From contig JACRAM010000057.1 in NCBI GenBank assembly GCA_016213405.1, positions 27,773 through 91,772 on the forward strand: a stretch of DNA of 64,000 nt, given 5' to 3'. Source of the stretch: Bacteroidota bacterium. Lineage in GTDB: Bacteria; Bacteroidota; Bacteroidia; Palsa-948. Numbering within the stretch: position 1 is the first letter of the stretch; every line of letters starts with the position of its first letter. The notes below the pieces were generated by a model, which had not been told where the DNA came from, did not search any database, and saw only the letters and a program-made list of their open reading frames with translations. Shown in pieces: positions 6,101-64,000 of this stretch. A program made the position numbers and the translations under genes.

Positions 6101-6219
6101 GAATCAATCAGGCGGAAAGCATTGACATCAGCAATTTTGCGGAAGGAATTTATTTTGTTATCATCAGCGATATGAATAACAAAACCATTTCTCAGCAAAA
6201 GTTTGTGAAGAGGAAGTAA
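151..6219 (+). CDS. Very large (2022 aa) secreted cell-surface/adhesin-like protein with a C-terminal T9SS (Por secretion) sorting domain. It contains duplicated N-terminal modules, two PPC-like beta-sandwich regions and an FN3-like region.
   Basis: N-terminal signal peptide (MMNFYKSYLFTVVFSSFIFC). Last ~80 aa (YPNPANNEIMVYTT...GIYFVIISDMNNKTISQQKFVKRK) match the Bacteroidota T9SS C-terminal domain pattern. Internal duplications: NSWRRDD-G-AAW...DYGSTDIGIDNL modules appear twice, and TFPAG...WKG-GES modules appear twice. Composition is Thr/Ser/Gly/Asn-rich. Confidence 0.7.
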   Translation: MMNFYKSYLFTVVFSSFIFCNSGFATVIINSGVATNPNGSFENATSTPAANGWTAVNDARNKWIVNTATAFAGTKSIYITTNAGTTNDYDNTATRVSHFYRDVTFPAGETCITLTFNWKGDGESCCDHLKVYLTSTATAVTAGTEQASLDLIGGPYNAQTTWQSATITIPASNAGTTKRLVFSWRNDASVGTNPPAAVDNISLISLAPVVPTYASLGYTQDFESWTSSCGAGINDIPSTNWAANPSTGNNSWRRDDEGALAAWGVPGSYIYSPVFTTTAHSARFHSGNATSGLQGILDLYVDCSPAGTKTLTFDYINTSGTDVLDVLQSTNGGSTFPTTLGSYAVAGSWTQQSISITTTSATTVIRFRATADYGSTDIGIDNLRCLLPCSGTPAGGTASASPASICLGQSSTISASGYTVAGGITFQWQSSPNPITTWTNIAGATSSTYTATPGASTNYRCVITCSNSALFAYSASTLVTITGTPTYATIPYSQSFEGPWINRCDTRDIPTNAWINTPATGNNSWRRDDDGAAAAWSTPAGGVYAPTSTLGTYSARFHSAWASSGLQGNLDLYVNLSPAGTKSLCFDYNNTSGSDVLDVMLSTDGGATFPTTLLTLPPNSGWTNQTVNITSTSATCVLRFRGTSDYGSTDIGIDNLWLGVPGVPGCATYTSPANGASGITCGINAILNWTAPAVTACNPATSYDVYFGTAAAPPYLTNVTSLFYNPGTLLPSTTYYWRIVPRNGGGAGACATVWSFATGASYTPSQTTPPITDGFETCTDWTIVNGAQPNVWIRGTNTFYTGANSMYIHNGGGTDNDYDITATSTVHFYKDITFPAGSNDYALRFYWKGMGESASYDYLRVFFAPTSVTPVAGTQVSSTYELTPYVYNQSATWQQFTNTLPVACGGNETWRLIFSWWNDGGGGTQPPIAVDDIQITTTPRTGTTCANPVNITLPYLKTGETTACMGDDYTNASVASCGSSYESDNDKVYKVLVGAAGCVNVTLSNTSSTSIGFQVYNGCPDVSGSTCIFNSTTGTIGGFLTADINIPSAGYYYVIVDSWSVPGDYVNYDITISAPGGNTANDPCSGAIPLTLGVSANGDNTCTNAMGEPVAPACWTTGAMNTIWYRVTIPASRDLVIKTTAGSLLKTQIDVYRGNSCAGLTYVDCNQDAASCGTQYDHSYLNLQNIGAGTYAYIRVDGEDNLVGTFSILVIDGNNIALPVLPPVVGQDCGPVLTYTNPICGQTTTVANPGNFAFGNICDFTGTGICLASGEKSSTWYTININANGTLAFDIVPNDYGNPNPLTGQSNPGYISPGDETDYDWSLWRWSAACNGTGDGTWCCTEIAAATAPSTPTRCNYSYLGVTGLYTTTGTAPPAYAGFGGAYEANLAVTNGEIYVLAVSNYANDYVSGYTLKFSGTSPIAYSTPGSTMTWGSSTSNAWVQAGNWGGCGPPNCGINAIIASGGAQPIISSNVNVQNITINAGATLMINPNCTLTVCGDFINNGTLTMASTATLLFNNGAVVQNISGSLTGANKIGNLVINKTGGSLILAAATPLDIGGNFVTQNTTSVFNGNNNVIKIAGNFSTASNVTVTNFPNVEFNGTIPQTYTNSAGTITWTNVTMNNSGGGMTLTGTATSNLVIAGILTLTNGIIYTANPPLLIMNAGSSVPSPYGSIISFVDGPMQKIGATAFVFPVGDAFNRWARIAISAPTAASTFQAQYFFTPYTNITSMCAAPLPVLNNVSGFEYWQLDRPAGTGNAAVTLYWENAASSGINSCTGTPGDLVVGRFTGACWENKNLAAVNPYTGSCAGTAAGTVTSDVVTAFSPFTFSSKSPGVNPLPAELLSFTGKSNGEENILEWVTASERNNDYFTLERGTDGFNFEKLAVVDGAGNSSTTKHYQSIDKEPFIGINYYRLKQTDFDGSVKYAANIIVIDFKQAPHYLFYPNPANNEIMVYTTSLQEENIAIDIADVFGRKMMQQKQLTVKGINQAESIDISNFAEGIYFVIISDMNNKTISQQKFVKRK
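328..2970 (+). repeat. Intragenic duplicated coding modules: module B at ~328-780 and ~2518-2970; module A at ~781-1305 and ~1618-2145
   Basis: Protein self-similarity. Module B: ...HFYRDVTFPAGETCITLTFNWKGDGES... versus ...HFYKDITFPAGSNDYALRFYWKGMGES.... Module A: ...TGNNSWRRDDEGALAAWG...DYGSTDIGIDNL... versus ...TGNNSWRRDDDGAAAAWS...DYGSTDIGIDNL.... Confidence 0.6.
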
Positions 6220-6337
6220 CGCCCTCTCTCTCCTTTTTCTTTTTATTCTTTCTTTCCTCTGTTTATTGCTGTGCTGCAACCGCGCTCAGTAAATAGAAAA
6301 GTTATATTTTCGCTTATCATCTCAAAAACACCTTATC

Positions 6338-7357
6338 ATGAAAATCGTTAAAGGAATATTAATTGCGCTGGTAGTTCTGGCAGCAATAGTTTCAATTGTC
6401 GGATTTCTTTCACCCAAACACGTGCATGTTGAGCGTTCGCTCACTATCAGTGCACCGGCAGAAATCATTCACGAGCAGATTAACAATCTTAAAAACTGGG
6501 AAAAGTGGTCGCCCTGGCAAAAGATGGACCCTGCCATGAAAACAGAATATAGCGGGAGCGAAGCAGGTGCGGGCGCCTCTTCAAAATGGACAAGCGAAAA
6601 TAAAAATGTAGGAAGCGGAGATATGACGATTACTTCCAGCACACCGGATTCTATTACTACTGCAATAAACTTTATGGAAAACGGAACCGCTACGGGAAAA
6701 TTTATTTTTGCAAAATCAGACAGTGGAATAAAAGTTACATGGAGCATGGAAAGCGATATGGGAATGAATCCTATCGGAAGAATCTTTGGTTTGTTCATGG
6801 ACAAAATGATGGGACCTGATTTTGAAAAGGGATTAGCGGGCATTAAAGAAGTAGCAGAAGCAATTCCAACAGGACCAAAAAAATACCGCGGCTTTGAAGT
6901 AATGGAAATGGATTCGCCCGAAATGGTTTACATCGGAAAAAAAGATTCTTTGGGCTGGGCTCAGATTTCGGAGTTCTACCAGAAAAATCTTCCCGCTATT
7001 TTTGAAGCGGTTGGAAAAGCAAAACTTGAACCAGCGGCTTCTCCTTCAGGATTATATTTCAGCTGGGACACGGTGAACAAAATCGCTGTAATGGCTGCCG
7101 CCATTCCCGTGAAAGGAGATTCAAAAACAAAAGTGAAAGGGTTTGAAACATTTATTCTTCCCGCAGGAAAAATGCTTCACATCGCCTACATGGGCGGCTA
7201 CAACGGAATTGGCACAGCGCACATGGCAATGGATGACTACATGCATGAAAAAGGATTCATGCAACTCACGCCCATTGCTGAAGAATATGTTACTGACCCG
7301 GGCAAAGAACCCGATTCAACCAAGTGGCTGACGAATGTGTATTACCCTGTGAAGTAA
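6338..7357 (+). CDS. Membrane-anchored hypothetical protein with an SRPBCC/START-like N-terminal half and a GyrI-like small-molecule-binding C-terminal half
   Basis: N-terminal TM helix (ILIALVVLAAIVSIVGFL). The sequence pattern resembles polyketide-cyclase/SRPBCC and GyrI-like folds. There is no catalytic motif I can anchor. Confidence 0.4.
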   Translation: MKIVKGILIALVVLAAIVSIVGFLSPKHVHVERSLTISAPAEIIHEQINNLKNWEKWSPWQKMDPAMKTEYSGSEAGAGASSKWTSENKNVGSGDMTITSSTPDSITTAINFMENGTATGKFIFAKSDSGIKVTWSMESDMGMNPIGRIFGLFMDKMMGPDFEKGLAGIKEVAEAIPTGPKKYRGFEVMEMDSPEMVYIGKKDSLGWAQISEFYQKNLPAIFEAVGKAKLEPAASPSGLYFSWDTVNKIAVMAAAIPVKGDSKTKVKGFETFILPAGKMLHIAYMGGYNGIGTAHMAMDDYMHEKGFMQLTPIAEEYVTDPGKEPDSTKWLTNVYYPVK

Positions 7358-13749: not shown

Positions 13750-13786
13750 TTTAATTGATTTTGGTTTGTGTTTGTTTTCCGTTTGA

Positions 13787-13811
13787 CCCGTTGGATGTTA
13801 TCCTACGGGTT
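13787..13811. repeat. 25-nt hairpin motif CCCGTTGGATGTTATCCTACGGGTT (copy 1)
   Basis: Perfect stem CCCGT/ACGGG plus GGAT/ATCC. A near-identical copy lies at 15829-15853. Confidence 0.6.
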
Positions 13812-15741: not shown

Positions 15742-15828
15742 GACTTTTTTTATAAAAACCTTTCCAACCCGGTTTGATGCTGGGCTGGAAAAGTTTAAAA
15801 GATGTTTTCAACACGGCTGCGGCTTTAA

Positions 15829-15853
15829 CCCGTTGGATTTTATCCTACGGGTT
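15829..15853. repeat. 25-nt hairpin motif CCCGTTGGATTTTATCCTACGGGTT (copy 2)
   Basis: 24/25 identical to the copy at 13787-13811. Confidence 0.6.
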
Positions 15854-16772: not shown

Positions 16773-16826
16773 TGTGATTGATTATTGGTTATTGTTTAGT
16801 GATTATTTATTATTAGTTGTTTTTTT

Positions 16827-17121
16827 GCCTCTCGCATTTGTGCGATACTATGTTTTAAACTTTTTTACGCCTCTCGCATTTATGCGAACTAATGTTTCAA
16901 TCTTTTTTATACCTGTCGCATTTGTGCGAACTCATATTTTGAACTTTTTTATGCCCCTCTCATTTATACGAACCCATGTTTCAAACTTTTTTCTCCCTCT
17001 CGTATTTGTGCGAACCCATACTTCAAACTTTTTTCTACCCTTCGGATTTGTGAAAACCCATCTTTCAAACTTTGTTTTGCCCTTCGGATTTGCGCGAACC
17101 CATGCTTTAAACTTTTTTATG
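16827..17121. repeat. Seven head-to-tail tandem 42-bp repeats (units 42,42,42,42,43,42,42 bp), each with a palindromic core TCGCATTTGTGCGA. Repeats degenerate toward 17121.
   Basis: Direct reading: GCCTCTCGCATTTGTGCGATACTATGTTTTAAACTTTTTTAC / GCCTCTCGCATTTATGCGAACTAATGTTTCAATCTTTTTTAT / ACCTGTCGCATTTGTGCGAACTCATATTTTGAACTTTTTTAT / ... It lies upstream of the start of 15840..16772 (-) and downstream of the XRE gene stop. Confidence 0.9.
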
Positions 17122-17133
17122 CTCATTGTATTC

Positions 17134-43732: not shown

Positions 43733-45997
43733 ATGAAAAAGATTACAATGTTATTCTCATCAGCATTTATTTTCATGAATGTTTTTGCGCAAGACAACGA
43801 TACCATCAATAAAGTCATTCAGTTGAATGAAATGGTGATTTCGGCAAATAAATCAGAAGAAAAAAAATCTGACATACCGCAAACGATCGAAATCATTAAA
43901 AGTAGGGATGTAGAGTTCAATAATCCGCAGACATCAGCTGATATGCTTCAGAGCACGGGAAATGTTTTCGTGCAGAAAAGTCAGGCAGGCGGAGGAAGTC
44001 CGGTGCTGAGGGGTTTTGAAGCGAACAGAGTTTTAATTGTAATTGACGGAATACGAATGAACAATGCTATTTACCGCGCTGGGCATTTGCAGGACGTAAT
44101 CACCGTTGACAACATGATGCTCGATAGAACGGAAGTTCTTTTTGGTCCAGCTTCCGTGATGTACGGGAGCGATGCACTGGGAGGCGTGATGCACTTCTAC
44201 ACAAAAAATCCTGAACTCGTCCGCAAGGACTCCTTCGGAGGAGATACTTCTGGCGTGAATACGAAAATAAATATCGGGCTTCGCTATTCAAGTGCGAACA
44301 GGGAAAACACCGCACATATCAATTTGAATCTTGGATACAAAAAAGTTGCTTTCCTCACCGGCATAACTTCGAGTGATTTTTCTGATTTAAGAAGCGGAAG
44401 TGTCCGTCCGCCATTTGACAAGCCATTCGGCAAGTGCAATTATTATGTGGTGCAATTGGACAGTCTGGATACGCTCATCAGAAACTCTGACCCGAATGTT
44501 CAGCGGTTTTCAGGATACAAACAATTTGACGTGATGCAGAAAATTCTTTTCCGGCAAAACAGCAGTGTTTCTCATCTTGTGAATTTTCAGTATTCCAATT
44601 CATCTGACATTCCGCGCTATGATCGCCTTCAGCAGTTTCAGCCCAACGCGGAACCCGTGTATGCAAAATGGCATTACGGTCCGCAGAAAAGAATTCTCGC
44701 TTCTCTGAAAACAAAAATTCTTTCGGAAGGAAAATTTTTTAATGACATGAACATCATTCTTGCCTGGCAGAATATTGAGCAAGAACGCGTGAGCAGAAAA
44801 TATAAAAAGACGAGCGAGAAAGACCAGCTGGAAAATGTGGGCGTTTATTCCGCGAACATTGATTTCAGAAAAGAGATAAATCCCGTAGGAACTTCTTCCA
44901 ACGGGATAAAAGAAAAACACGAACTGCATTACGGCATTGAAGGAACTTACAACGATGTGCAGTCCTCCGCCACGATGACGGATATTTTTACAAAAGTTGA
45001 AACCGCTACCGCACCTCGCTATCCCGATGGAGGAAGCACAATGATGACTTCCGCCATGTATCTTTCTCACAGCTGGGAGATAAATGAAAAATATATTCTC
45101 ACCGATGGCATTCGGTTTAACTATGTTGATTTGAAATCGCAGTGGAAAGACACCTCACTTTTTCATTTCCCGTTTTCTTCCATTGAACAAAAAAACAATG
45201 CTCTTAATGGGAATATTGGTTTCGTTGCCATGCCGGGATTCGGATGGAGATTCACTCTCCTTGGCTCAAGCGGGTTCCGCGCGCCAAATGTGGATGACAT
45301 GGGAAAAGTGAATGAGTCTGCTCAGGGACAACTCATTGTTCCGAATCCCGTTCTGAAACCCGAGTTCGCTTACAGCAGTGAAGCGGGGATTTCAAAAAAC
45401 TTCAGCGGGAAAGTAAAAATGGAAGCAGTTTATTTCTACACGCTTCTTCAAAATGCTATCGTGGTGAAAGACGATAAGTTTAACGGAGCCGATTCTGTTT
45501 TGTACGATGGCGTGATGAGCAAAGTGCAGTCGGCACAAAACGCAGATGAAGCATACATACAAGGATTTTCTGCAAACTTCATGGCAGACTTTGATGAAAA
45601 TTTTTCTCTGAAGAGTTCGATAAATTACACATACGGAATGTATAAAGACAAAGCAAACGATACGCTTGTTCCGATGGATCACATTCCGCCTGTGTTCGGG
45701 CAGACCACATTAATATATCACTATAAAAGAATTGAAACTGAATTTAACGTTCGATACAACGGATGGAAGCGCCTCGAAGATTACAGTCCGAGCGGAGAAG
45801 ATAATCTGGCACAAGCAACCGCTTATGGAATGCCGGCATGGTACACACTCAATTTTAAAACTGCGTTCGAAATAAATCCGCACATGAAAATCATCGTTGG
45901 AATGGATAATATCCTCGACATGCACTATCGCACTTTTGCTTCAGGCGTGAGCGCTCCCGGAAGAAATTTCATTTTTGCGATAAGAGCCAAACTATAA
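43733..45997 (+). CDS. TonB-dependent outer membrane receptor
   Basis: Signal peptide, plug-domain motifs (...NRVLIVIDGIRMNNA...), about 754 aa beta-barrel. Confidence 0.75.
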   Translation: MKKITMLFSSAFIFMNVFAQDNDTINKVIQLNEMVISANKSEEKKSDIPQTIEIIKSRDVEFNNPQTSADMLQSTGNVFVQKSQAGGGSPVLRGFEANRVLIVIDGIRMNNAIYRAGHLQDVITVDNMMLDRTEVLFGPASVMYGSDALGGVMHFYTKNPELVRKDSFGGDTSGVNTKINIGLRYSSANRENTAHINLNLGYKKVAFLTGITSSDFSDLRSGSVRPPFDKPFGKCNYYVVQLDSLDTLIRNSDPNVQRFSGYKQFDVMQKILFRQNSSVSHLVNFQYSNSSDIPRYDRLQQFQPNAEPVYAKWHYGPQKRILASLKTKILSEGKFFNDMNIILAWQNIEQERVSRKYKKTSEKDQLENVGVYSANIDFRKEINPVGTSSNGIKEKHELHYGIEGTYNDVQSSATMTDIFTKVETATAPRYPDGGSTMMTSAMYLSHSWEINEKYILTDGIRFNYVDLKSQWKDTSLFHFPFSSIEQKNNALNGNIGFVAMPGFGWRFTLLGSSGFRAPNVDDMGKVNESAQGQLIVPNPVLKPEFAYSSEAGISKNFSGKVKMEAVYFYTLLQNAIVVKDDKFNGADSVLYDGVMSKVQSAQNADEAYIQGFSANFMADFDENFSLKSSINYTYGMYKDKANDTLVPMDHIPPVFGQTTLIYHYKRIETEFNVRYNGWKRLEDYSPSGEDNLAQATAYGMPAWYTLNFKTAFEINPHMKIIVGMDNILDMHYRTFASGVSAPGRNFIFAIRAKL

Positions 45998-46086
45998 GAA
46001 GCCCCACCCCTTCCCTCCCCATTAGGGAGGGAGAAAGTAATGCAAGTCCTCCCCAATGGGGAGGATTTAGGAGGGGCTTTTTTATT
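45998..46086. repeat. GC-rich nested-palindrome element (family exemplar). It also functions as a terminator-like structure after the TonB receptor gene.
   Basis: GAAGCCCCACCCCTTCCCTCCCCATTAGGGAGGGAGAAAGTAATGCAAGTCCTCCCCAATGGGGAGGATTTAGGAGGGGCTTTTTTATTTT. Stems CCCTCCCC/GGGAGGG, CCTCCCC/GGGGAGG, GCCCC/GGGGC, then a T-run. Core repeated at 53341-53378 (reverse complement) and 63916-63950. Confidence 0.75.
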
Positions 46087-48124: not shown

Positions 48125-49330
48125 TCAAAACATTTTTCGGTAACACCGCTTACGCTTGTGCTGAATATGCTCGTAACTCTTCCAGTTGGAAATGGCGTTG
48201 AGGTTGGTTTCAAAAATGCCGGTGGTCTCTATGTGCTTCATCCCCTTGCTCACCATTTCTTTCTGTATCTCTGCCATGAGAACCACACCCGCGCCTGTGT
48301 ACATCACTTCTTTTTTCACGCCTGTGAGCAGTTGGTCCATCACATCCTTGCCTTTGCGTGCCTTGAGGATGTGCAAAAAACCGAACGGGAAAAGTTTTCC
48401 GTTTGCTTTTTGCATGGCTTCGGATAAAGAAGGAAGACCTACGATGAATCCAACCAAAGCCCCCCTTAATCCCCCCGAAAGGGGGAAACTTGCGGATGCT
48501 TTTCCTGTGCTCCCCCCTTTGGGGGGAGGGGCTATTACCATCTTTACAAATTCAGGATTGAGAAGCTTGATATATTTCTCTTTGTAGAACGCCATCATCT
48601 TAGGAGAAAACTCTGAAACGAACGGGAGTTCGCTGAACGCGTCATTAAGTATCTTGAAAATAGTATCGGAATGCGGAAGCAGTTCATTCATTGTTTTAAA
48701 ATGAAGCACTTCTATGCCGTAGCGTTTCTGAATCAGTGCAGCACCGCGGGTTACTTTATCCACGATTCTCGGGTTGACAGTGAGGCGGAACTCGAGCCAG
48801 TCAATTTCTTTTACGTAGCCGAGTTTTTCTAAGTGCCGGTGATAATATTCATGATGATACACCGAACCGATAGATTGCAGATGGTTAAAACCTTCCACCA
48901 ACATTCCCTGCGTATCTAAATTCGCAAAGCCAAGCGGACCGTGAATGCCGATGGCTCCGTTTTCTTTTGCCCATGCTTCAACAGTGGAAATAAGCTTTGC
49001 GATTACTTCTGGAGAACCTGTGGTGAGCGGAGTCGAACCATCAAAGAATTCCAAGCGCGAGAAGCGCGCCATCTTTTCGTCTGTCTTTTTATTGTACTCT
49101 TCATTGATGATGGCTCCGATCCTTCCAACGCACTTGCCGTTCTTATAGGCTAACCAGAACTTTGCCTTGCAGAAATCAAACGCAGGATTTGTTTCCGCGA
49201 AAAGCGATTTCATTTCTCCTGCCTTCAATGGAGGAACCCAAAATTTATTGCCTTTGTAAATGTCAAACGGAAGATTTACAAACTGCTTTGCGTCACTCTT
49301 TGATTTAACTTGCTTTATTTCTATTGACAT
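48125..49330 (-). CDS. Hypothetical protein (possibly GNAT-fold acyltransferase-like) carrying an in-frame GC-rich element insertion
   Basis: No secure motif. The product contains the Pro/Gly-rich segment PPPKGGSTGKASASFPLSGGLRGA encoded by the palindromic element at 48458-48533. Confidence 0.35.
   Translation of the reverse strand: MSIEIKQVKSKSDAKQFVNLPFDIYKGNKFWVPPLKAGEMKSLFAETNPAFDFCKAKFWLAYKNGKCVGRIGAIINEEYNKKTDEKMARFSRLEFFDGSTPLTTGSPEVIAKLISTVEAWAKENGAIGIHGPLGFANLDTQGMLVEGFNHLQSIGSVYHHEYYHRHLEKLGYVKEIDWLEFRLTVNPRIVDKVTRGAALIQKRYGIEVLHFKTMNELLPHSDTIFKILNDAFSELPFVSEFSPKMMAFYKEKYIKLLNPEFVKMVIAPPPKGGSTGKASASFPLSGGLRGALVGFIVGLPSLSEAMQKANGKLFPFGFLHILKARKGKDVMDQLLTGVKKEVMYTGAGVVLMAEIQKEMVSKGMKHIETTGIFETNLNAISNWKSYEHIQHKRKRCYRKMF
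48458..48533. repeat. GC-rich palindromic element inserted in-frame in gene 48125..49330
   Basis: AGCCCCCCTTAATCCCCCCGAAAGGGGGAAACTTGC...CTCCCCCCTTTGGGGGGAGGGGCT. Stems CCCCC/GGGGG and CTCCCCCC/GGGGGGAG. The host reading frame is preserved. Confidence 0.6.
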
Positions 49331-50225: not shown

Positions 50226-50353
50226 AGGAGTTCCTTCGGGAGAAAGCGAATGTACGAAACTCCTTTTCTCACTATGGTAAATTAAATTATCTTTGCGTCC
50301 CTTTTACCCGTAGGAAAATTTTCAACAGGTTTAACAGTAAATAAAAAATTCAA

Positions 50354-51077: not shown

Positions 51078-51180
51078 TTCCCCGTAGGGGAAAATGTTAA
51101 TAGCCCCGACCTTTAGGACGGGGGCAATTGCGCCACCACACAAACTCCCCTCTCCTGTTTTAGGAGAGGGTTTGGGGGTG
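51078..51180. repeat. Cluster of GC-rich hairpins in the efp-downstream intergenic region
   Basis: TTCCCCGTAGGGGAA, GCCCCGACCTTTAGGACGGGGGC, CCCCTCTCCTGTTTTAGGAGAGGGG (perfect 10-bp stem). The same family as the other GC-rich elements. Also TCGCTCCTGCGGAGCGA at 51035-51051. Confidence 0.55.
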
Positions 51181-52654: not shown

Positions 52655-52787
52655 AAAATTGTGATTTCGACCAAAGCGAGCAGTCTCCTCAAGTGAAGCA
52701 GAAATTATAAGAAGATTCTTCGCTTTGCTCAGACTGACAATTTACCTTCATTCGTATATTCGCAAACCTTAATTCGTTATTCGAAAA

Positions 52788-54173
52788 ATGAAAGTTTTAA
52801 AATTCGGTGGGACATCGCTTGGATCGGCAGAACGGATGAAAAATCTTGTTCAGCTTATCGTGAATGATGAGCCAAAGATTGTTGTTCTTTCTGCCATGAG
52901 CGGAACCACCAATGCATTGGTTGAAATCGCAAATGCACTTTACGAAAGAGAAAACAACAAAGCAAAGCAGCTCATTGACGCACTGGAAAAAAAATACGAA
53001 TTAGTTCTGAAAGAACTTTATTCAAAAGAATCTTCGCTTAACAAAGGAAAAGAGCTAGTAAAGAATCATTTTGAGTTTATCCGCTCTTTCACGCTGGATA
53101 TGTTCACCGCGAATGAGGAAAAAGCCATTCTCGCGCAGGGTGAACTTCTTTCCACCGCTATGGAACATTTTTATCTGGAAGAAATCGGGGTTGATTCTGT
53201 TCTGCTTCCTGCACTCAACTTTATGCGTATTGACGAGAACGATGAACCGGATCTGAAATACATTGAAGAGAACTTAAAAGCGGAATTAAAGAAATACCAA
53301 GCCCTACCTAAATCCTCCCCATCGGGGAGGACTTCAGAAAATACTCCCTCCCTAACGGGGAGGGTTGGGGAGGGGCTCTTATTTATCACACAGGGATATA
53401 TCTGCCGAAATGCATTCGGAGAAATTGATAATCTGAAACGTGGCGGAAGCGATTACACTGCAACGCTCATCGGTGCAGCACTTACTGCGGAAGAAATTCA
53501 AATCTGGACAGATATTGACGGCATGCACAACAATGACCCACGCATTGTTGACAAAACTTTTCCCGTCACTGATTTGTCATTTGAAGAAGCGGCAGAGCTT
53601 GCATATTTTGGAGCGAAGATTCTTCATCCTACCTGCGTAATTCCTGCAAAGAAGAGGAATGTTCCTGTTCGATTGCTGAACACAATGGAACCAAATGCAA
53701 AAGGAACGGTCATAACAAAAAAATCCCCGGGCGATAGAATCACGGCAGTTGCAGCCAAAGACGGAATCATCGCCATCAATATTAAATCTGCTCGAATGCT
53801 TTTAGCTTATGGGTTCCTGAGAAGCGTATTTGAAATTTTTGAGCGCTACAAAACTCCGATCGATATGATTACTACTTCGGAGGTAGCAGTATCGGTTACA
53901 ATTGATAACGACAAAAACTTAGAAGCTATTCTGAAAGAGCTGAAAGAATTTTGTTCTGTTGAAACAGATAAAGACCAAACTATTATTTGCATTGTAGGAA
54001 GTTTCACTGCAGAAAAACAAGGTGTAGCAGTAAAAATTTTTGCTGCGCTATCAACTATTCCTCTGAGAATGATTTCGTATGGCGGCAGCGAGAACAATGT
54101 TTCGGTGCTGGTGGAATCAAAATATAAAAAGGATGCGCTGGTTGCGCTTAATAAAGGATTGTTCAACTTATAA
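52788..54173 (+). CDS. lysC: Aspartate kinase (with C-terminal ACT domains) carrying an in-frame GC-rich element insertion
   Basis: MKVLKFGGTSLGSAERM... N-terminus, LKRGGSDYTATLIGAAL, C-terminal ACT repeats. Insert ALPKSSPSGRTSENTPSLTGRVGEGL immediately before the conserved ITQGY strand. Confidence 0.85.
   Translation: MKVLKFGGTSLGSAERMKNLVQLIVNDEPKIVVLSAMSGTTNALVEIANALYERENNKAKQLIDALEKKYELVLKELYSKESSLNKGKELVKNHFEFIRSFTLDMFTANEEKAILAQGELLSTAMEHFYLEEIGVDSVLLPALNFMRIDENDEPDLKYIEENLKAELKKYQALPKSSPSGRTSENTPSLTGRVGEGLLFITQGYICRNAFGEIDNLKRGGSDYTATLIGAALTAEEIQIWTDIDGMHNNDPRIVDKTFPVTDLSFEEAAELAYFGAKILHPTCVIPAKKRNVPVRLLNTMEPNAKGTVITKKSPGDRITAVAAKDGIIAINIKSARMLLAYGFLRSVFEIFERYKTPIDMITTSEVAVSVTIDNDKNLEAILKELKEFCSVETDKDQTIICIVGSFTAEKQGVAVKIFAALSTIPLRMISYGGSENNVSVLVESKYKKDALVALNKGLFNL
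53312..53378. repeat. GC-rich palindromic element inserted in-frame in lysC
   Basis: CCTCCCCATCGGGGAGG plus ACTCCCTCCCTAACGGGGAGGGTTGGGGAGGGGCTC. The second part is the reverse complement of the core at 63916-63950 and 45998-46034. Confidence 0.7.
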
Positions 54174-54181
54174 TGTATTAA

Positions 54182-54729
54182 CCCCATGCTTCAGCATGGG
54201 GGATAAAAACGGAAAACAAAAAGGGCTTTAGCCCTGAATTGAAAACGAGAATGTCATTTGTAAAAATATGGGTGCATGCAGTATGGGGTACTAAAAACCG
54301 TACTCCTGTTCTTTCGAAAGAGATTCGAATGAAATTGTTTCAGCACATAAGAGAAAATGCAAAGGAAAAAGAAATCTATATTGATTTTATTAATGGACAT
54401 CTTGACCATGTTCATTGTTTGCTTGCATTGAATGCCGAAATGAGCATTTCAAAAGCAATTCAATTGCTTAAAGGCGAATCAGCATTCTGGGCAAACAAAA
54501 ATAAATTAACAGAAGCAAAATTAGAGTGGGCAGACGAATACTTCGCTGTTTCCGTCAGCGAATCTTTGATTGACAAAGTCAGAGATTACATAAAAAATCA
54601 GGAACAACATCATGCAAAAATTACATTCATGCAGGAGTATGAAAATTTTATGCAGAAATATGAATTTATAAATCATGGCTAAAGCCCTTTTAATACGATT
54701 ATGATATACTCCACACTTAAGTGCGGAGT
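54182..54729 (+). mobile_element. REP-associated tyrosine transposase (RAYT)-like unit: Y1 HUH transposase gene flanked by small inverted hairpins. Inserted between lysC and lysA.
   Basis: Flanks: CCCCATGCTTCAGCATGGGGG (54182-54202) and AGGGCTTTAGCCCT (54222-54235) upstream; GGCTAAAGCCC (54678-54688) and ACTCCACACTTAAGTGCGGAGT (54708-54729) downstream. Confidence 0.55.
54239..54682 (+). CDS. IS200/IS605-type Y1 (HUH) transposase, REP-associated tyrosine transposase (RAYT)-like
   Basis: MKTRMSFVKIWVHAVWGTKNRTPVLS... and HUH motif in GHLDHVHCLLAL. 147 aa, typical size. Single-domain Y1 transposase. Confidence 0.6.
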   Translation: MKTRMSFVKIWVHAVWGTKNRTPVLSKEIRMKLFQHIRENAKEKEIYIDFINGHLDHVHCLLALNAEMSISKAIQLLKGESAFWANKNKLTEAKLEWADEYFAVSVSESLIDKVRDYIKNQEQHHAKITFMQEYENFMQKYEFINHG

Positions 54730-54738
54730 TAAAACAAA

Positions 54739-55926
54739 ATGTTCAGCAAAGAAACCATACAAAAATTCCAGAGCACTCCTACTCCATTTTATTATTATGA
54801 TTTGGATTTGCTGAATCGTACCATTGAAGCACTGAAAAAAGAATCGGAGAAATATAGCTACCACATTCATTACGCTCTCAAAGCAAATGCGAATGATGAA
54901 ATACTTTCTGTGATTAAAAAATCAGGATTAGGTGCAGACTGCGTGAGCGGAAATGAGGTGAAGAAAGCCAGCGAACACAAGTTTGAAAAAATATTTTTTG
55001 CAGGAGTCGGAAAAAGCGATGAAGAAATAAATACCGCACTGGATTGCAACATTACTTGTTTCAATTGTGAAAGTTTGCAGGAGATTGAAGTAATAAATGA
55101 ACTTGCGAAGAAAAAAAGCAAAATCGCGCAAATCGCTTTCCGCATAAATCCGAATGTGAACGCGAATACGCATAAATACATTACTACAGGATTGGAAGAA
55201 AATAAATTCGGAATTAATATCTGGGAACTGGAAGAAGTGGTGAAGAGAACACAGCAACTGAAGAATATAAAAATTTCAGGAATTCATTTTCACATCGGGT
55301 CGCAGATTACGGATTTGAGCGCATTCAAATCACTTTGCTTGCGCGCGAATGAAATTCAGAGTTGGTTTGTGAGTCACAAGGTTTCATTGGAACATATAAA
55401 TGTCGGAGGCGGTCTAGGTGTGGATTACCACTACCCCGACAAAAATTCAATACCTGATTTTTCTTCTTACTTTGGCTTGTTCAAACAATTTTTAGAACTA
55501 CGCCCGAAACAAATTCTCCATTTTGAAATCGGCAGAGCCATTGTGGCACAATGCGGAAGCTTGATTTCAAAAGTGCTCTATGTAAAAAAAGGAGTGAGCA
55601 CAAGTTTTGTAATTCTTGATGCAGGAATGACAGAATTGATTCGTCCTGCACTGTATCAATCGTATCACAAAATACAGAAGTTAGGAGTTGGGGGTTCGGA
55701 GTTGGGAGCAACAGCCAACTCCTCCGAACTCCACACTCCACACTCCGCACTAATGAAATATGATGTGGTGGGTCCCATCTGCGAATCATCCGACTGTTTT
55801 GGCAAAGCGGTAATGCTTCCTGAAACAAAGCGTGGGGATTTAGTTGCTATCCGTACAACTGGCGCGTACGGTGAAGTAATGGCTTCGCAATATAATTTAA
55901 GAGAGAAGGTGAAGGCATTTTATTAG
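54739..55926 (+). CDS. lysA: Diaminopimelate decarboxylase carrying an in-frame GC-rich element insertion
   Basis: PLP fold-III decarboxylase: ...YHIHYALKANAN..., ...GGGLGVDY..., C-terminal ...ESSDCFGK...GAYG.... Insert LGVGGSELGATANSSELHTPHSA between conserved blocks. Confidence 0.85.
   Translation: MFSKETIQKFQSTPTPFYYYDLDLLNRTIEALKKESEKYSYHIHYALKANANDEILSVIKKSGLGADCVSGNEVKKASEHKFEKIFFAGVGKSDEEINTALDCNITCFNCESLQEIEVINELAKKKSKIAQIAFRINPNVNANTHKYITTGLEENKFGINIWELEEVVKRTQQLKNIKISGIHFHIGSQITDLSAFKSLCLRANEIQSWFVSHKVSLEHINVGGGLGVDYHYPDKNSIPDFSSYFGLFKQFLELRPKQILHFEIGRAIVAQCGSLISKVLYVKKGVSTSFVILDAGMTELIRPALYQSYHKIQKLGVGGSELGATANSSELHTPHSALMKYDVVGPICESSDCFGKAVMLPETKRGDLVAIRTTGAYGEVMASQYNLREKVKAFY
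55684..55750. repeat. GC-rich palindromic element inserted in-frame in lysA
   Basis: GGAGTTGGGGGTTCGGAGTTGGGAGCAACAGCCAACTCCTCCGAACTCCACACTCCACACTCCGCAC. Arms TTCGGAGTTGG / CCAACTCC(TC)CGAA. ACTCCACACT is shared with the hairpin at 54708. Confidence 0.6.
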
Positions 55927-62800: not shown

Positions 62801-63916
62801 ATGGAAAACTTCATTGTATCAGCACGAAAGTATCGTCCTCAGACGTTTGACACCGTTGTCGGGCAGGCGCATATTACGAGCACTTTAATAAATGCTATTA
62901 AAACAAACCACGTTTCCCAGGCGTATTTGTTCTGCGGTCCACGCGGAGTAGGAAAAACTACCTGCGCGCGAATTCTGGCGAAGACAATCAACTGCTTTAA
63001 CCGAACAACAAATATTGAAGCGTGCGATGAATGTGATTCATGCAAATCATTTAATACAGGTAACTCATTAAATATTTTTGAACTTGATGCAGCATCAAAT
63101 AATTCGGTGGAAGATATCCGCAATCTGATTAATCAGGTGAGTTTTGCCCCACAAATCGGAACTCACAAAGTATATATTATTGATGAGGTTCATATGCTTT
63201 CGTCAAATGCGTTCAATGCTTTTCTGAAAACGCTGGAAGAGCCGCCAAAACACGCAATTTTCATTCTGGCGACTACGGAAAAACATAAAATTATTCCTAC
63301 GATACTTTCCCGATGCCAGATCTTTGATTTCAACCGGATAAAGATTGATGATATTGTCGGACATCTTTCAACTATTTCAAAAAAAGAAAAAGTAAAATCC
63401 GAAGAAGAAGCGCTGCACACCATCGCCCAAAAAGTAGATGGGTCCATGCGCGATGCACTGAGTATTTTCGACCAGATGGTTTCGCTGTCGGGAGATGTGA
63501 TTACGTATAAATCGGTCATCGACAATCTCAGCATTCTGGATTATGATTATTATTTCAAGGTGACGGATGCATTGCTGGAAAAAAATACTTCTTCATCGCT
63601 TCTCATCTTCAACGAAATACTGAACAAAGGTTTTGACGGACATCATTTCATCAACGGATTAGCAGAGCATTTGAGAAATCTCTTGGTATGCCGAGATGAA
63701 ATTACGCTACAACTTTTAGAAGTAAGTACGAGCATTCGCGGACTCTACAAAACGCAGAGCAAAAAAACAGAACCTGATTTTCTCCTTCGTTGCCTGAGCA
63801 TTCTCAACAAAGCGGATGTGCAGTACAAAGCCAGCCGAAACCAGCGCTTGTTGGTGGAACTTACACTTCTTCAGTTGTGTTCGCTACAAGGCGCTGAAAA
63901 AAAAAATGATATACTG
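62801..63916 (+). CDS. dnaX: DNA polymerase III subunit gamma/tau, zero-frame product (371 aa, domains I-III). Tau-type extension continues in the -1 frame after an A9 run.
   Basis: MENFIVSARKYRPQTFDTVVGQAHIT...GPRGVGKTT...DEVHML...SRCQIFDF...QRLLVELTLLQLCSLQGAEKKMIY then TGA at 63914-63916. Frame verified at several motifs. This ORF is absent from the supplied track. The -1 frame is open to the window end. Confidence 0.75.
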
Positions 63917-63950
63917 AGCCCCACCCCTGCCCTCCCCGTTAGGGAGGGAG
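63897..63950 (+). other. Candidate recoding site in dnaX: A9 slippery run (63897-63905) followed by GC-rich stem-loop element (63916-63950)
   Basis: GCT GAA AAA AAA ATG ATA TAC TGA in zero frame. After a -1 shift or one extra A: ...KKNDILSPTPALPVREGENKTISSKIVSEVKEEQ. Stem CCCTCCC(63929-63935)/GGGAGGG(63941-63947). Confidence 0.55.
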
Positions 63951-64000
63951 AAAATAAAACCATTTCTTCAAAAATAGTTTCGGAAGTAAAAGAAGAGCAA

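What the first reader, a model, noticed from the sequence alone, without database searches (positions are those of the whole stretch)
54182..54729. RAYT-type HUH transposase inserted between lysC and lysA, flanked by inverted hairpins
lysC and lysA are normally adjacent or co-transcribed. Here a 147-aa Y1 transposase of the REP-associated (RAYT) type sits between them (HUH motif in GHLDHVHCLLAL, N-terminal KIWVHAVWGTKNRTPVL). It is bounded by short palindromes: CCCCATGCTTCAGCATGGGGG and AGGGCTTTAGCCCT upstream, GGCTAAAGCCC and ACTCCACACTTAAGTGCGGAGT downstream. RAYTs are the proposed mobilisers of REP elements in proteobacteria. Finding one next to two genes that each carry in-frame palindromic inserts suggests a RAYT/REP-like system operating in this Bacteroidota genome.
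Basis: partly seen in the sequence, partly recalled or inferred. Interest (0 to 1): 0.6.

Follow-up and report, generated by a model that had tools for sequence, protein, structure and literature searches.

The report
Hairpin-flanked IS200-like transposase gene cassette
A small single-strand-DNA "tyrosine transposase" gene, bracketed by mirror-image pairs of DNA hairpins, sits as an insertion between two lysine-biosynthesis genes; its protein is IS200-like rather than a true RAYT, yet the gene, hairpins and inheritance are arranged much as in REP-associated transposases.

Summary

The two flanks are inverted copies of one ~60-nt module: TTAA tag, 8-bp hairpin with a TTNA loop, ~20-24 nt spacer, then the small hairpin GGCTTTAGCC.

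The same layout flanks homologues in dozens of Bacteroidota and Ignavibacteria genomes. Of 171 such modules, 165 lie within 1 kb of the gene.

About 70 related lysC-lysA loci lack the gene, so it is an insertion. One close relative shares it.

The protein is not a RAYT by sequence:
- IS200 model 72.7 bits, against 21.9 for the RAYT model.
- Best solved relative is IS608 TnpA.
- The Y motif is YIKNQEQHH.

It fits TnpA-Y1 "subclass 1.2" (Quentin 2018), described as IS200-related, low-copy and without REPs.

The arrangement is nevertheless REPtron-like. The ends are inverted tagged hairpins, and solo, doublet and arrayed gene-less modules exist. The gene keeps stable positions inside operons: umuD-umuC in 16 genomes, cas9-cas1 in 4.

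The hairpins are not a dispersed REP family in this window; there is one extra outer-type hairpin in 64 kb. The in-frame inserts in lysC and lysA belong to other repeat families.

Verdict: a new variant of a known kind, of moderate interest.

The parts
52788..54173 (+). lysC (aspartokinase), the upstream neighbour. It carries an unrelated in-frame palindromic insert at about 53293-53377.
   Evidence: Pfam AA_kinase plus ACT domains; NCBIfam aspartate kinase. The insert is absent from most relatives.
54178..54201 (+). Left outer hairpin with its 5' tag: TTAA, then CCCCATGC-TTCA-GCATGGGG.
   Evidence: Best hit of covariance model R1, 41 bits. A homologous hairpin lies 40-67 nt upstream of the ATG in 23 homologue loci.
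54202..54221 (+). A-rich spacer of the left module.
   Evidence: The spacer between outer and inner hairpin is 20-26 nt in most of 171 modules.
54222..54237 (+). Left inner hairpin AGGGCTTTAGCCCT followed by GA (the GGCTTTAGCC-CTGA motif).
   Evidence: The sequence is conserved across homologue loci.
54251..54682 (+). Y1/HUH gene, 143 aa, IS200-related 'subclass 1.2' type. In 143-aa numbering: HUH at H53/H55, Tyr113, Gln117, HH120-121.
   Evidence: Pfam Y1_Tnp 1.7e-27. NCBIfam IS200 72.7 bits against RAYT 21.9. IS608 TnpA E = 3.4e-9. Alignment A1. Motifs of Quentin 2018.
54673..54687 (-). Right inner hairpin (TCATGGCTAAAGCCC on the + strand), the inverted copy of the left one. It overlaps codons His-Gly-stop.
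   Evidence: Where the C-terminus differs, as in Flavobacterium, the motif lies after the stop codon instead, so it is a cis element and not a by-product of coding.
54708..54732 (-). Right outer hairpin with its tag. On the - strand it reads TTAA, then CTCCGCAC-TTAA-GTGTGGAG.
   Evidence: R1 hit of 34.6 bits on the - strand. It folds better on the - strand (G.T pair) than on the + strand (A.C mismatch).
54219..54245 (.). Left arm of the 27-nt inverted repeat. Its partner is 54665-54691.
   Evidence: the repeat finder pair I4, 85% complementary.
54665..54691 (.). Right arm of the 27-nt inverted repeat.
54739..55926 (+). lysA (diaminopimelate decarboxylase), the downstream neighbour. It starts 6 nt after the right tag and carries an unrelated in-frame insert at about 55679-55744.
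   Evidence: TIGR01048 lysA 377.6 bits. The insert varies among relatives.
51097..51130 (+). Solitary outer-type hairpin (ATAG, then CCCCGACC-TTTA-GGACGGGG, then GCAATTG). It is the only other hit in the window and has no inner hairpin beside it.
   Evidence: R1 21.9 bits, E about 6e-4.

Best explanation
This is a roughly 555-bp cassette (54178-54732). It consists of one IS200-related HUH/Y1 gene, of the 'subclass 1.2' type of Quentin et al. 2018, enclosed by its own cognate DNA sites.

Each end is a ~55-60-nt module: a 5' TTAA tag, an 8-bp G+C-rich hairpin with a TTNA loop, a ~20-24-nt spacer, then the small conserved hairpin GGCTTTAGCC followed by (C/A)TGA. The two ends are inverted copies of each other.

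Shown:
- The cassette entered the lysC-lysA spacer as a unit in an ancestor of this lineage.
- It has since been inherited vertically.
- The wider family sits in fixed, co-oriented positions inside operons for long periods.
- The modules also exist without the gene, as solo ends, end-to-end doublets and tandem arrays, mostly right beside the gene.

Inferred, by analogy with IS608 TnpA and E. coli TnpA-REP:
- The enzyme binds the hairpins when the DNA is single-stranded, for example at a replication fork.
- It uses the tag at the hairpin foot to place the cut, forms a 5'-phosphotyrosine link through Tyr113, and rejoins strands. This would duplicate, delete or move modules, and rarely the whole cassette.
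- Because the ends are inverted rather than left and right ends on one strand, the recognised form occurs on opposite strands at the two ends, as in REPINs and REPtrons.

In short, it works like a REPtron or TIRtron but is built on an IS200-clade enzyme.
For: Protein:
- Y1_Tnp 1.7e-27 and IS200 model 72.7 bits, above its cut-off of 55.
- It aligns with IS608 TnpA over HUH, Tyr and Gln.
- H53, H55, Q117 and HH120-121 are invariant in 30 homologues, and Y113 is nearly so.
- The DHVH and YIKNQEQHH motifs, 143-aa length and Bacteroidota host match subclass 1.2.

Ends belong to the gene:
- The same module lies at fixed distance on both sides, in inverted orientation, in 23 left and 21 right ends from different genomes.
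- The outer stem varies while staying paired: 98.6% paired, 7 of 8 pairs with changes on both sides. Tag, loop and inner hairpin are conserved.
- Hairpin density is 7.5 per kb within 100 nt of the gene and about 0.02 per kb or less beyond 1 kb.
- Of 171 full modules, 85 lie within 60 nt of the gene, 80 at 61-1000 nt and 6 further away. There are 0 in shuffles and 2 in 393 kb of loci chosen independently of the gene.

Insertion:
- About 70 related lysC-lysA loci lack it. The spacer is as short as 2 nt (TAATG) in L108.
- L081 (lysC 88%, lysA 86-90%, Y1 85% identical) shares the whole arrangement.

Gene-less copies:
- A doublet at L002:3853-3974, a doublet after the gene in L079, and tandem units in L007.
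- Solo left modules on both sides of lysC in L160.

Persistence:
- umuD-Y1-umuC in 16 Chitinophagaceae-type genomes; cas9-Y1-cas1-cas2 in 4 Flavobacterium; lysC-Y1-serS in 2 Runella.
- Y1 divergence equals and tracks that of UmuC and UmuD: means 69, 69 and 65%; Spearman 0.55 and 0.61.
- Both neighbours are co-oriented with the gene in 49 of 65 loci.
- There is only one Y1_Tnp ORF in the window.
Against: - No biochemical or mobility evidence exists. Cleavage sites, the active strand, and even whether DNA or RNA is the relevant form are inferred.
- The hairpins used for the covariation count were selected for pairing, so the pairing percentage is partly circular.
- The arrays in L007 carry along flanking non-module sequence. 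That looks like tandem duplication or recombination rather than repeated transposition.
- Copy number in the source genome beyond 64 kb is unknown.
- Assignment to subclass 1.2 rests on motifs only. The published 'W' motif is WQ, whereas this family has WA.
- Stable intra-operon positions could also mean the gene has a host function unrelated to moving its hairpins.
Confidence: 0.65

Rival explanations
1. It is a genuine RAYT/REP system. A RAYT-clade transposase would disperse its flanking hairpins genome-wide, including the in-frame palindromic inserts in lysC and lysA.
For: - The gene is flanked by inverted tagged hairpins.
- JGI labels many homologues 'REP element-mobilizing transposase RayT', a generic COG name.
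- REPs of RAYT classes 2.7 and 2.8 have the same stem-TTTA/TTCA-stem design.
- One unrelated contig has 11 two-hairpin modules in about 21 kb.
Against: - The RAYT model scores 21.9 bits against a cut-off of 80, and no TnpA-REP structure is matched.
- The Y motif is not Y---NP.
- The tag is TTAA, not GT[AG]G.
- There is only one extra weak hairpin in 64 kb.
- The model finds nothing in the lysC or lysA inserts, which belong to other families and differ between close relatives.
Confidence: 0.07
2. It is an ordinary, currently active IS of the IS200 group that happens to be single-copy here. The hairpins would be its left and right ends, and it transposes by the standard strand-specific peel-and-paste route.
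For: - The IS200 model is above its cut-off, and NCBI names it an IS200/IS605 family transposase.
- The closest structures are IS608 and ISDra2 TnpA.
- The cassette occupies different genomic contexts in different lineages, so it has moved as a unit.
- Its G+C content is 33% against 40-41% for the neighbours.
Against: - The ends are inverted copies of each other rather than distinct left and right hairpins on one strand.
- The same insertion site is kept across 16 species-level genomes, with divergence equal to that of the neighbours.
- No second copy is present in 64 kb, nor in any 12-kb locus apart from fragments.
- The published description of subclass 1.2 gives 1.7 copies per genome, only 36% identical to each other, and 'does not share IS properties'.
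Confidence: 0.15
3. It is a domesticated gene with a host function, for example processing of single-stranded DNA linked to the SOS response or CRISPR adaptation. The flanking hairpins would be its regulatory or binding sites, not mobile substrates.
For: - It holds conserved positions between umuD and umuC, and between cas9 and cas1.
- It is co-oriented with the surrounding operon genes.
- Sequence conservation suggests purifying selection: 77% mean column identity.
- Its divergence tracks that of its neighbours.
Against: - The contexts are functionally unrelated (lysine synthesis, SOS polymerase, CRISPR, serS). That fits permissive operon spacers better than a shared function.
- Gene-less modules and doublets exist away from the gene.
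- The cassette is absent from most close relatives of this genome, so it is dispensable.
Confidence: 0.1
4. The hairpins are host transcription terminators or insulators of the lysC-lysA operon, and their association with the gene is incidental.
For: - The left outer hairpin lies 8 nt after the lysC stop codon.
- The terminator scan flags the left inner hairpin on the - strand.
Against: - The same tag, loop, spacing and inner hairpin travel with the gene in unrelated contexts.
- No T-run follows the outer hairpins.
- Relatives without the gene lack these hairpins, except L160.
Confidence: 0.03

Closest known systems
TnpA-Y1 subclass 1.2 (Quentin et al. 2018, BMC Genomics 19:475, PMC6006769)
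   Same: DH[IV]H HUH motif; Y---Q--HH tyrosine motif (published YIKNQKEHH, here YIKNQEQHH); about 148 aa with a conserved C-terminal tail; low copy number; found in Bacteroidetes; IS200-related but 'does not share IS properties'.
   Different: [quoted passage not shown] Its automated search required a GT[AG]G tag. Here the genes are flanked by conserved inverted two-hairpin modules with NTAA or NTTG tags. The published W motif is WQ; this family has WA.
REPtron: TnpA-REP/RAYT gene with flanking REP/BIME/REPIN sequences (E. coli yafM; Pseudomonas RAYTs)
   Same: A low-copy Y1 gene flanked by inverted hairpins that carry a short conserved tag at the 5' foot. The hairpins also occur alone, as inverted doublets and in clusters. 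Inheritance is vertical. REPs of classes 2.7 and 2.8 share the stem-TTTA/TTCA-stem design.
   Different: The protein belongs to the IS200 clade, not the RAYT clade. The tag is TTAA, not GTAG. Each end has two hairpins. The repeats are concentrated at the gene rather than dispersed in hundreds of copies. The cassette has moved as a unit, whereas REPtrons are said not to.
IS200/IS605 family insertion sequences (IS200, IS608, ISDra2)
   Same: Closest by sequence and by solved structure (IS608 TnpA E = 3.4e-9). Same catalytic residues, similar size, subterminal hairpins, and no obvious target duplication.
   Different: IS200/IS605 ends are different left and right hairpins on one strand, with no inverted repeats, and the elements are typically multi-copy and horizontally transferred. 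Here the ends are inverted repeats, the gene is single-copy, and it stays syntenic over long periods.
TIRtron/TIRYT (Di Nocera et al. 2013, BMC Genomics 14:522, PMC3733652)
   Same: Tyrosine-transposase genes flanked by terminal inverted repeats, some self-complementary or doubly palindromic and some overlapping the gene ends. The repeat families are small or absent elsewhere in the genome.
   Different: Most TIRYTs are RAYT-like class 2.1 proteins with HTH tails and a GGGGWSAS repeat motif. The protein and repeats here are unrelated to those.
'RAYT-like IS200 Group 3' (Bertels, Gallie & Rainey 2017, GBE 9:2110, PMC5581495)
   Same: A distinct IS200-family group with no duplicates, none on plasmids, and abundant flanking 16-mers. 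It is the IS200 group closest to RAYTs. This is the same lifestyle as seen here.
   Different: Whether that group is this family could not be checked, because no sequences or motifs are given in the text held. No flank architecture was described.

Membership tests
RAYT / TnpA-REP (class 2 Y1 proteins) | Protein matches the curated RAYT model (NCBIfam NF047646, cut-off 80 bits). | tested here: not met
   21.9 bits. No TnpA-REP chain is among the PDB sequence hits at E <= 0.01.
RAYT / TnpA-REP (class 2 Y1 proteins) | Tyrosine motif Y---NP, common to all class 2 members (Quentin 2018). | tested here: not met
   The motif is YIKNQEQHH.
RAYT / TnpA-REP (class 2 Y1 proteins) | Gene flanked by cognate palindromic repeats in inverted orientation. 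| tested here: met
RAYT / TnpA-REP (class 2 Y1 proteins) | 5' GT[AG]G tag at the foot of the hairpin. | tested here: not met
   The tag is TTAA in the window. Across 171 modules: TAA 80, TTG 49, CAA 10, TAG 9.
RAYT / TnpA-REP (class 2 Y1 proteins) | Cognate repeats dispersed in many copies over the genome. | tested here: inconclusive
   Only one extra, weaker hairpin in 64 kb, and about 0.02 per kb or less beyond 1 kb in 80 loci. The whole genome is not available. L160 and one viral-collection contig show that dense dispersal can occur elsewhere.
RAYT / TnpA-REP (class 2 Y1 proteins) | Single copy, vertically inherited. | tested here: met
   One Y1_Tnp ORF in the window. The arrangement is shared with L081. 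Family-level synteny and divergence correlated with neighbours. Copy number over the whole genome was not testable.
IS200/IS605 insertion sequences (subclass 1.1) | Protein matches the curated IS200 transposase model (NF033573, cut-off 55 bits), with HUH, Tyr and Gln. | tested here: met
   72.7 bits; alignment to IS608 TnpA.
IS200/IS605 insertion sequences (subclass 1.1) | Distinct left and right subterminal hairpins on the same strand, with no terminal inverted repeats. | tested here: not met
   The ends are inverted copies of one module.
IS200/IS605 insertion sequences (subclass 1.1) | Several near-identical copies per genome; patchy, horizontally spread distribution. | tested here: inconclusive
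   No second copy in 64 kb. Each protein cluster is seen on 1-2 contigs as a rule. Synteny is kept over 16 genomes. Whole genomes were not available.
TnpA-Y1 subclass 1.2 (Quentin 2018) | HUH motif DH[IV]H and tyrosine motif Y---Q--HH. | tested here: met
   DHVH and YIKNQEQHH; H53, H55, Q117, H120 and H121 are invariant in alignment A1.
TnpA-Y1 subclass 1.2 (Quentin 2018) | About 148 aa, a short core plus a conserved C-terminal tail of about 30 aa; host in Bacteroidetes or Cyanobacteria. | tested here: met
   143 aa with a conserved tail after HH. Hosts are Bacteroidota and Ignavibacteria.
TnpA-Y1 subclass 1.2 (Quentin 2018) | W motif 'WQ' in the published table. | tested here: not met
   This family has W-A (EWADEYF). 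It may be a sub-branch.
TnpA-Y1 subclass 1.2 (Quentin 2018) | Placement by the authors' subclass HMM or tree. | not testable with these tools
   The profiles and member lists are not in the held text or supplements.

The most novel reading that the evidence does not exclude
Subclass 1.2 Y1 proteins together with the two-hairpin modules (NTAA/NTTG tag, 8-bp hairpin with TTNA loop, about 23 nt, GGCTTTAGCC) form a distinct REPtron-like system of Bacteroidota and Ignavibacteria that has not been described. It would be built on an IS200-clade enzyme and on REPs without the GTAG tag, which GT[AG]G-based searches missed. It lodges co-directionally inside operons (umuDC, cas9-cas1, lysC-lysA) and persists there for family-level time spans. 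If so, it would be a second, independent route from IS200 to a RAYT-like lifestyle, or the missing intermediate between the two.
Probability: 0.45. Interest if true: 0.6.

Novelty: new variant of a known kind. Interest (0 to 1): 0.45.

Why it matters
If the reading holds, a group of IS200-like genes now annotated as ordinary transposases, and reported to have no associated repeats, does have cognate hairpin repeats and a REPtron-like life style.

- That gives a concrete, testable substrate for an uncharacterised HUH enzyme: two defined ~55-60-nt single-stranded modules.
- It bears on how RAYT/REP systems arose from IS200.
- It warns that REP searches keyed on GTAG miss whole families.
- The recurrent lodging between umuD and umuC, and between cas9 and cas1, offers natural settings for asking whether such cassettes exploit operon transcription or the availability of single-stranded DNA.

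For the window itself the practical message is modest. The gene is an insertion that splits lysC from lysA by 565 nt, and it is unrelated to the in-frame inserts in those two genes.

Tried and rejected
- **Rfam:** a scan of the whole window at gathering thresholds gave no match, so no riboswitch or known RNA explains the hairpins.
- **Promoter and terminator scan of 53900-55000:** counts were at shuffle level and nothing was informative.
- **Link to the lysA insert:** the right hairpin and the lysA insert share the 10-mers ACTCCACACT and ACTCCGCACT. However, the covariance model finds nothing in the insert, and the insert is a run of heptads that differs in each relative. I treat it as a different element; the shared 10-mers remain unexplained.
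- **Strand test from wobble pairs:** G.T pairs on the tag strand against A.C mismatches, counted by hand from alignment A2, gave 6 against 2. That is too few to decide.
- **Literature search for GGCTTTAGCC or GGCTAAAGCC as text:** only primers were found. Nezha/ISNpu3 MITEs were checked as a possible link, but no sequence details are held.
- **Viral-contig scan for inner-hairpin doublets:** the result was a mixture. Many hits are classical GTAG or GTGG REPINs whose apical stem-loop happens to be GGCTTTAGCC. The 10-mer alone is therefore not diagnostic; only the two-hairpin module is.
- **Target site:** the TTAA at both borders cannot be told apart from part of the inverted repeat. Empty sites in relatives are too diverged to fix the junctions.
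- **Not run:** structure prediction and the large representative-protein search, because sequence evidence already placed the protein.
Full report
**1. What is in the sequence**

Between lysC (52788-54173) and lysA (54739-55926) there is one ORF, 54239-54682 from TTG. It more likely starts at the ATG at 54251. That gives 143 aa, the length of almost every homologue.

The ORF matches Pfam Y1_Tnp with E = 1.7e-27. None is expected by chance: shuffles give 0 for the long hairpins and 0.17 for the 12-mer.

- The flanks are inverted copies of each other. The 27-nt arms at 54219-54245 and 54665-54691 are 85% complementary.
- The right inner hairpin overlaps the end of the gene. In CAT GGC TAA AGCC the stop codon is the hairpin loop.

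With the TTAA that abuts each outer hairpin, the unit spans 54178-54732. It ends 6 nt before the lysA start codon.

**2. What the protein is**

- The NCBIfam IS200 model scores 72.7 bits (cut-off 55). The RAYT model scores 21.9 bits (cut-off 80).
- By sequence the nearest solved structures are IS608 TnpA (E = 3.4e-9) and ISDra2 TnpA. No TnpA-REP chain appears.
- DHVH aligns with the HUH of IS608, and Tyr113 and Gln117 align with IS608 Y127 and Q131.
- The tyrosine motif is YIKNQEQHH, not the Y---NP shared by all RAYT classes.

This combination is what Quentin et al. 2018 call TnpA-Y1 subclass 1.2: DH[IV]H, Y---Q--HH, about 148 aa, a conserved C-terminal tail, and Bacteroidetes hosts. They describe the subclass as closely related to IS200 transposases but not sharing IS properties. 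They report 1.7 copies per genome, only 36% identical to each other, and 'REP: no'.

One listed motif differs: WQ in their table, WA here. Their profiles are not available, so the assignment rests on motifs.

Bertels et al. 2017 describe a 'RAYT-like IS200 Group 3'. It has no duplicates, none on plasmids, and abundant flanking 16-mers. It may be the same family, but I could not check this.

**3. The flanks belong to the gene**

I fetched 80 genomic loci of homologues, each from a different species-level genome, mostly Bacteroidota and Ignavibacteria. Printing the flanks showed the window's layout again and again:
- upstream: (T)TAA, an 8-bp hairpin with a TTTA or TTCA loop, an A-rich spacer, GGCTTTAGCC(C)TGA, 15-25 nt, then ATG;
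- downstream: the mirror image, with the inner hairpin on or just after the stop codon.

Aligned, 23 left ends and 21 right ends give one consensus: TAAC-CCnnnn-TTTA-nnnnGGG, 22-26 nt, GGCTTTAGCC(C/A)TGA.

The outer stem differs between genomes while staying paired: 98.6% of cells paired, and 7 of 8 pairs with changes on both sides. The hairpins were picked for pairing, so that percentage is partly circular. The fixed position, tag and loop are not circular.

Other sub-branches (Flavobacterium, Chitinophagaceae) use the tag (A)ATTG. Where the C-terminus differs, the inner hairpin lies after the stop codon. It is therefore a cis element and not a by-product of coding.

Density of outer-type hairpins, by distance from the gene:

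| Distance from gene | Hairpins per kb |
|---|---|
| under 100 nt | 7.5 |
| 100-300 nt | 1.75 |
| 300-1000 nt | 0.31 |
| beyond 1 kb | 0.004-0.03 |

Counting complete two-hairpin modules in the 868 kb of Y1 loci plus the window gives 171:
- 85 within 60 nt of a gene end;
- 80 at 61-1000 nt;
- 6 further away;
- none in shuffled sequence;
- only 2, both in one locus, in 393 kb of Bacteroidota loci chosen independently of the gene.

**4. It is an insertion, and it has been inherited since**

Using lysA as the query I fetched 80 related metagenome loci.
- In about 70 of them lysC and lysA are adjacent, 2-390 nt apart.
- None contains the Y1 gene.
- Among the closest relatives (lysC 81-88% identical), L108 has the two genes overlapping as TAATG.
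- L086 has a 33-nt spacer.
- L083 and L084 carry other palindromes.
- L088 carries a different small ORF.
- L160 carries a solitary left module directly before the lysA ATG, plus a second module upstream of lysC.

One relative, L081, has the full lysC-Y1-lysA arrangement with both modules. It is 88% identical in lysC, 86-90% in lysA and 85% in Y1.

So the cassette entered this spacer as a unit. It has since diverged in step with its neighbours.

**5. Behaviour of the family**

- Neighbour clustering and Pfam show the gene between umuD and umuC in 16 Chitinophagaceae-type genomes.
- It lies between cas9 and cas1-cas2 in four Flavobacterium species.
- It lies between lysC and serS in two Runella genomes.
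- In the umuDC group, Y1 divergence (mean 69%) equals that of UmuC (69%) and UmuD (65%). It correlates with them, with Spearman 0.55 and 0.61.
- Both neighbours are co-oriented with the gene in 49 of 65 loci.
- The window holds no second Y1_Tnp ORF.

This is the pattern of the 'domesticated' RAYTs (Bertels 2017), not of an IS. Yet the identical end architecture in unrelated contexts shows that the cassette has moved as a unit several times, which REPtrons are said not to do.

**6. Gene-less modules**

- L002 has a complete 122-nt doublet (outer, inner, inner', outer') 2 kb from the gene.
- L079 has one just after the gene.
- L007, L017, L033, L019 and L078 have arrays beside the gene.
- L082 has a solo right end before the gene and a truncated second copy after it.

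The L007 array repeats non-module flanking sequence too. At least some arrays are therefore tandem duplications.

A scan of the viral-contig collection for inner-hairpin doublets gave 40 stretches of mixed nature.
- Many are classical GTAG or GTGG REPINs whose apical stem-loop is GGCTTTAGCC.
- Some are true two-hairpin doublets (L174, L202, L199, L169).
- One contig carries 11 modules in about 21 kb, with no Y1 gene in the part fetched.

REPs listed by Quentin et al. for RAYT classes 2.7 and 2.8 have the same stem-TTTA/TTCA-stem design. Examples are GTAGGACAGACTTTAGTCTGTC and GTAGTGAGGGCTTTAGCCCT. Their automated search required GT[AG]G, which would miss the TAA- and TTG-tagged hairpins found here.

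**7. In this window**

Covariance model R1, run with filters off, finds three things: the two flanking hairpins (41 and 34.6 bits), and one weaker solitary hairpin at 51097-51130 (21.9 bits). The inner motif occurs only at the two flanks.

The model finds nothing in the in-frame inserts of lysC (about 53293-53377) or lysA (about 55679-55744).
- The lysC insert belongs to a CCCTCCC/GGGAGGG family with other copies at 45993-46040 and 63910-63957.
- Both inserts are absent from, or different in, close relatives.

**8. How it most likely works**

Shown:
- The catalytic residues are intact and conserved.
- Cognate inverted two-hairpin ends travel with the gene.
- Gene-less solo, doublet and arrayed modules exist.
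- The cassette arrived by insertion and then persisted vertically.

Inferred, from the IS608 and TnpA-REP paradigms (established knowledge; summarised):
- The enzyme recognises the hairpins in single-stranded DNA.
- The tag at the hairpin foot helps place the cut, and Tyr113 forms the covalent intermediate.
- Because the ends are inverted, the tagged form lies on opposite strands at the two ends, as in REPINs.

One small supporting observation: in the window the right hairpin folds better on the tag-bearing strand, -8.5 against -6.1 kcal/mol, with a G.T pair where the other strand has an A.C mismatch.

Unknown: the cleavage positions, whether modules move by the enzyme or by recombination, and any benefit to the host.

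**9. Verdict**

The element works like a REPtron or TIRtron but fails the membership tests for RAYT on the protein model, the Y motif and the tag. It fails the IS200 test on end architecture. It fits subclass 1.2.

What may be new is the conserved two-hairpin, non-GTAG end module and the long-lived intra-operon positions, for a subclass reported as having no REPs. That makes it a new variant of a known kind, of moderate interest.

Noticed in passing
L012, L014, L023, L028, L031, L032, L040, L041, L049, L052, L053, L065, L069, L070, L073, L080 (gene at about 6001-6420 in most): In 16 Chitinophagaceae-type genomes the homologous Y1 gene sits between umuD (Peptidase_S24) and umuC (IMS/IMS_C/DUF4113), co-oriented with both. 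Its divergence tracks theirs.
   Followed up: partly
L056, L057, L067, L072 (gene at about 6001-6420): In four Flavobacterium species the Y1 gene lies between cas9 (RuvC_III + HNH_4) and cas1-cas2, in the same orientation.
   Followed up: partly
window 53293-53377 (lysC) and 55679-55744 (lysA): Both genes carry in-frame palindromic inserts in variable loops. Relatives have no insert, or a different one, at the same sites. The lysC insert belongs to a CCCTCCC/GGGAGGG family also seen at 45993-46068, 48510-48528, 51148-51170 and 63910-63957. The lysA insert is built of inverted runs of AGTKNGG heptads and shares two 10-mers with the right outer hairpin, which is unexplained.
   Followed up: partly
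L088:2030-2500: In one relative the lysC-lysA spacer holds a different small ORF of about 125 aa. By eye it looks like a DUF559 endonuclease-type protein, but it was not scanned. It is flanked by GEGLGVR-type palindromes, so this spacer appears to be a hot spot for several kinds of palindrome-flanked insertions.
   Followed up: no
L021:6485-7954: In a Runella MAG a tandem array of about 43-nt hairpin units after the Y1 gene runs in frame into the N-terminus of the downstream gene. I identified that gene as serS by eye only. The array gives a repeated PKTPRLQAGDN peptide.
   Followed up: no
L160:976-1033 and 2427-2486: Two solitary left-type modules flank lysC in a relative that has no Y1 gene in the 6 kb held. 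One of them sits directly in front of the lysA start codon, where the Y1 gene would be.
   Followed up: partly
L163 and L166 (one IMG/VR contig, G+C 0.58): There are 11 two-hairpin modules with the tag TCAG (GGCACGGC-TTTA-GCCGTGCC, about 22 nt, GGGCTTTAGCCCC) in about 21 kb. No Y1 homologue is in the fetched part, and the organism is unknown.
   Followed up: no
window 16778-17122: A tandem array of about 8 copies of a 42-nt unit (…CTCGCATTTGTGCGAAC…), each unit with a small palindrome, lies in an intergenic region. It was not examined.
   Followed up: no
window 13782-13811, 15824-15853, 50302-50331: Three copies of a hairpin AACCCGTTGGAT…ATCCTACGGGTT sit in intergenic positions. They may be a terminator-like repeat family and are unrelated to the finding.
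   Followed up: no
window 52656-52743: An imperfect inverted repeat with 34-nt arms lies in the 322-nt leader upstream of lysC. No Rfam family, including the lysine riboswitch, reaches its threshold there.
   Followed up: partly
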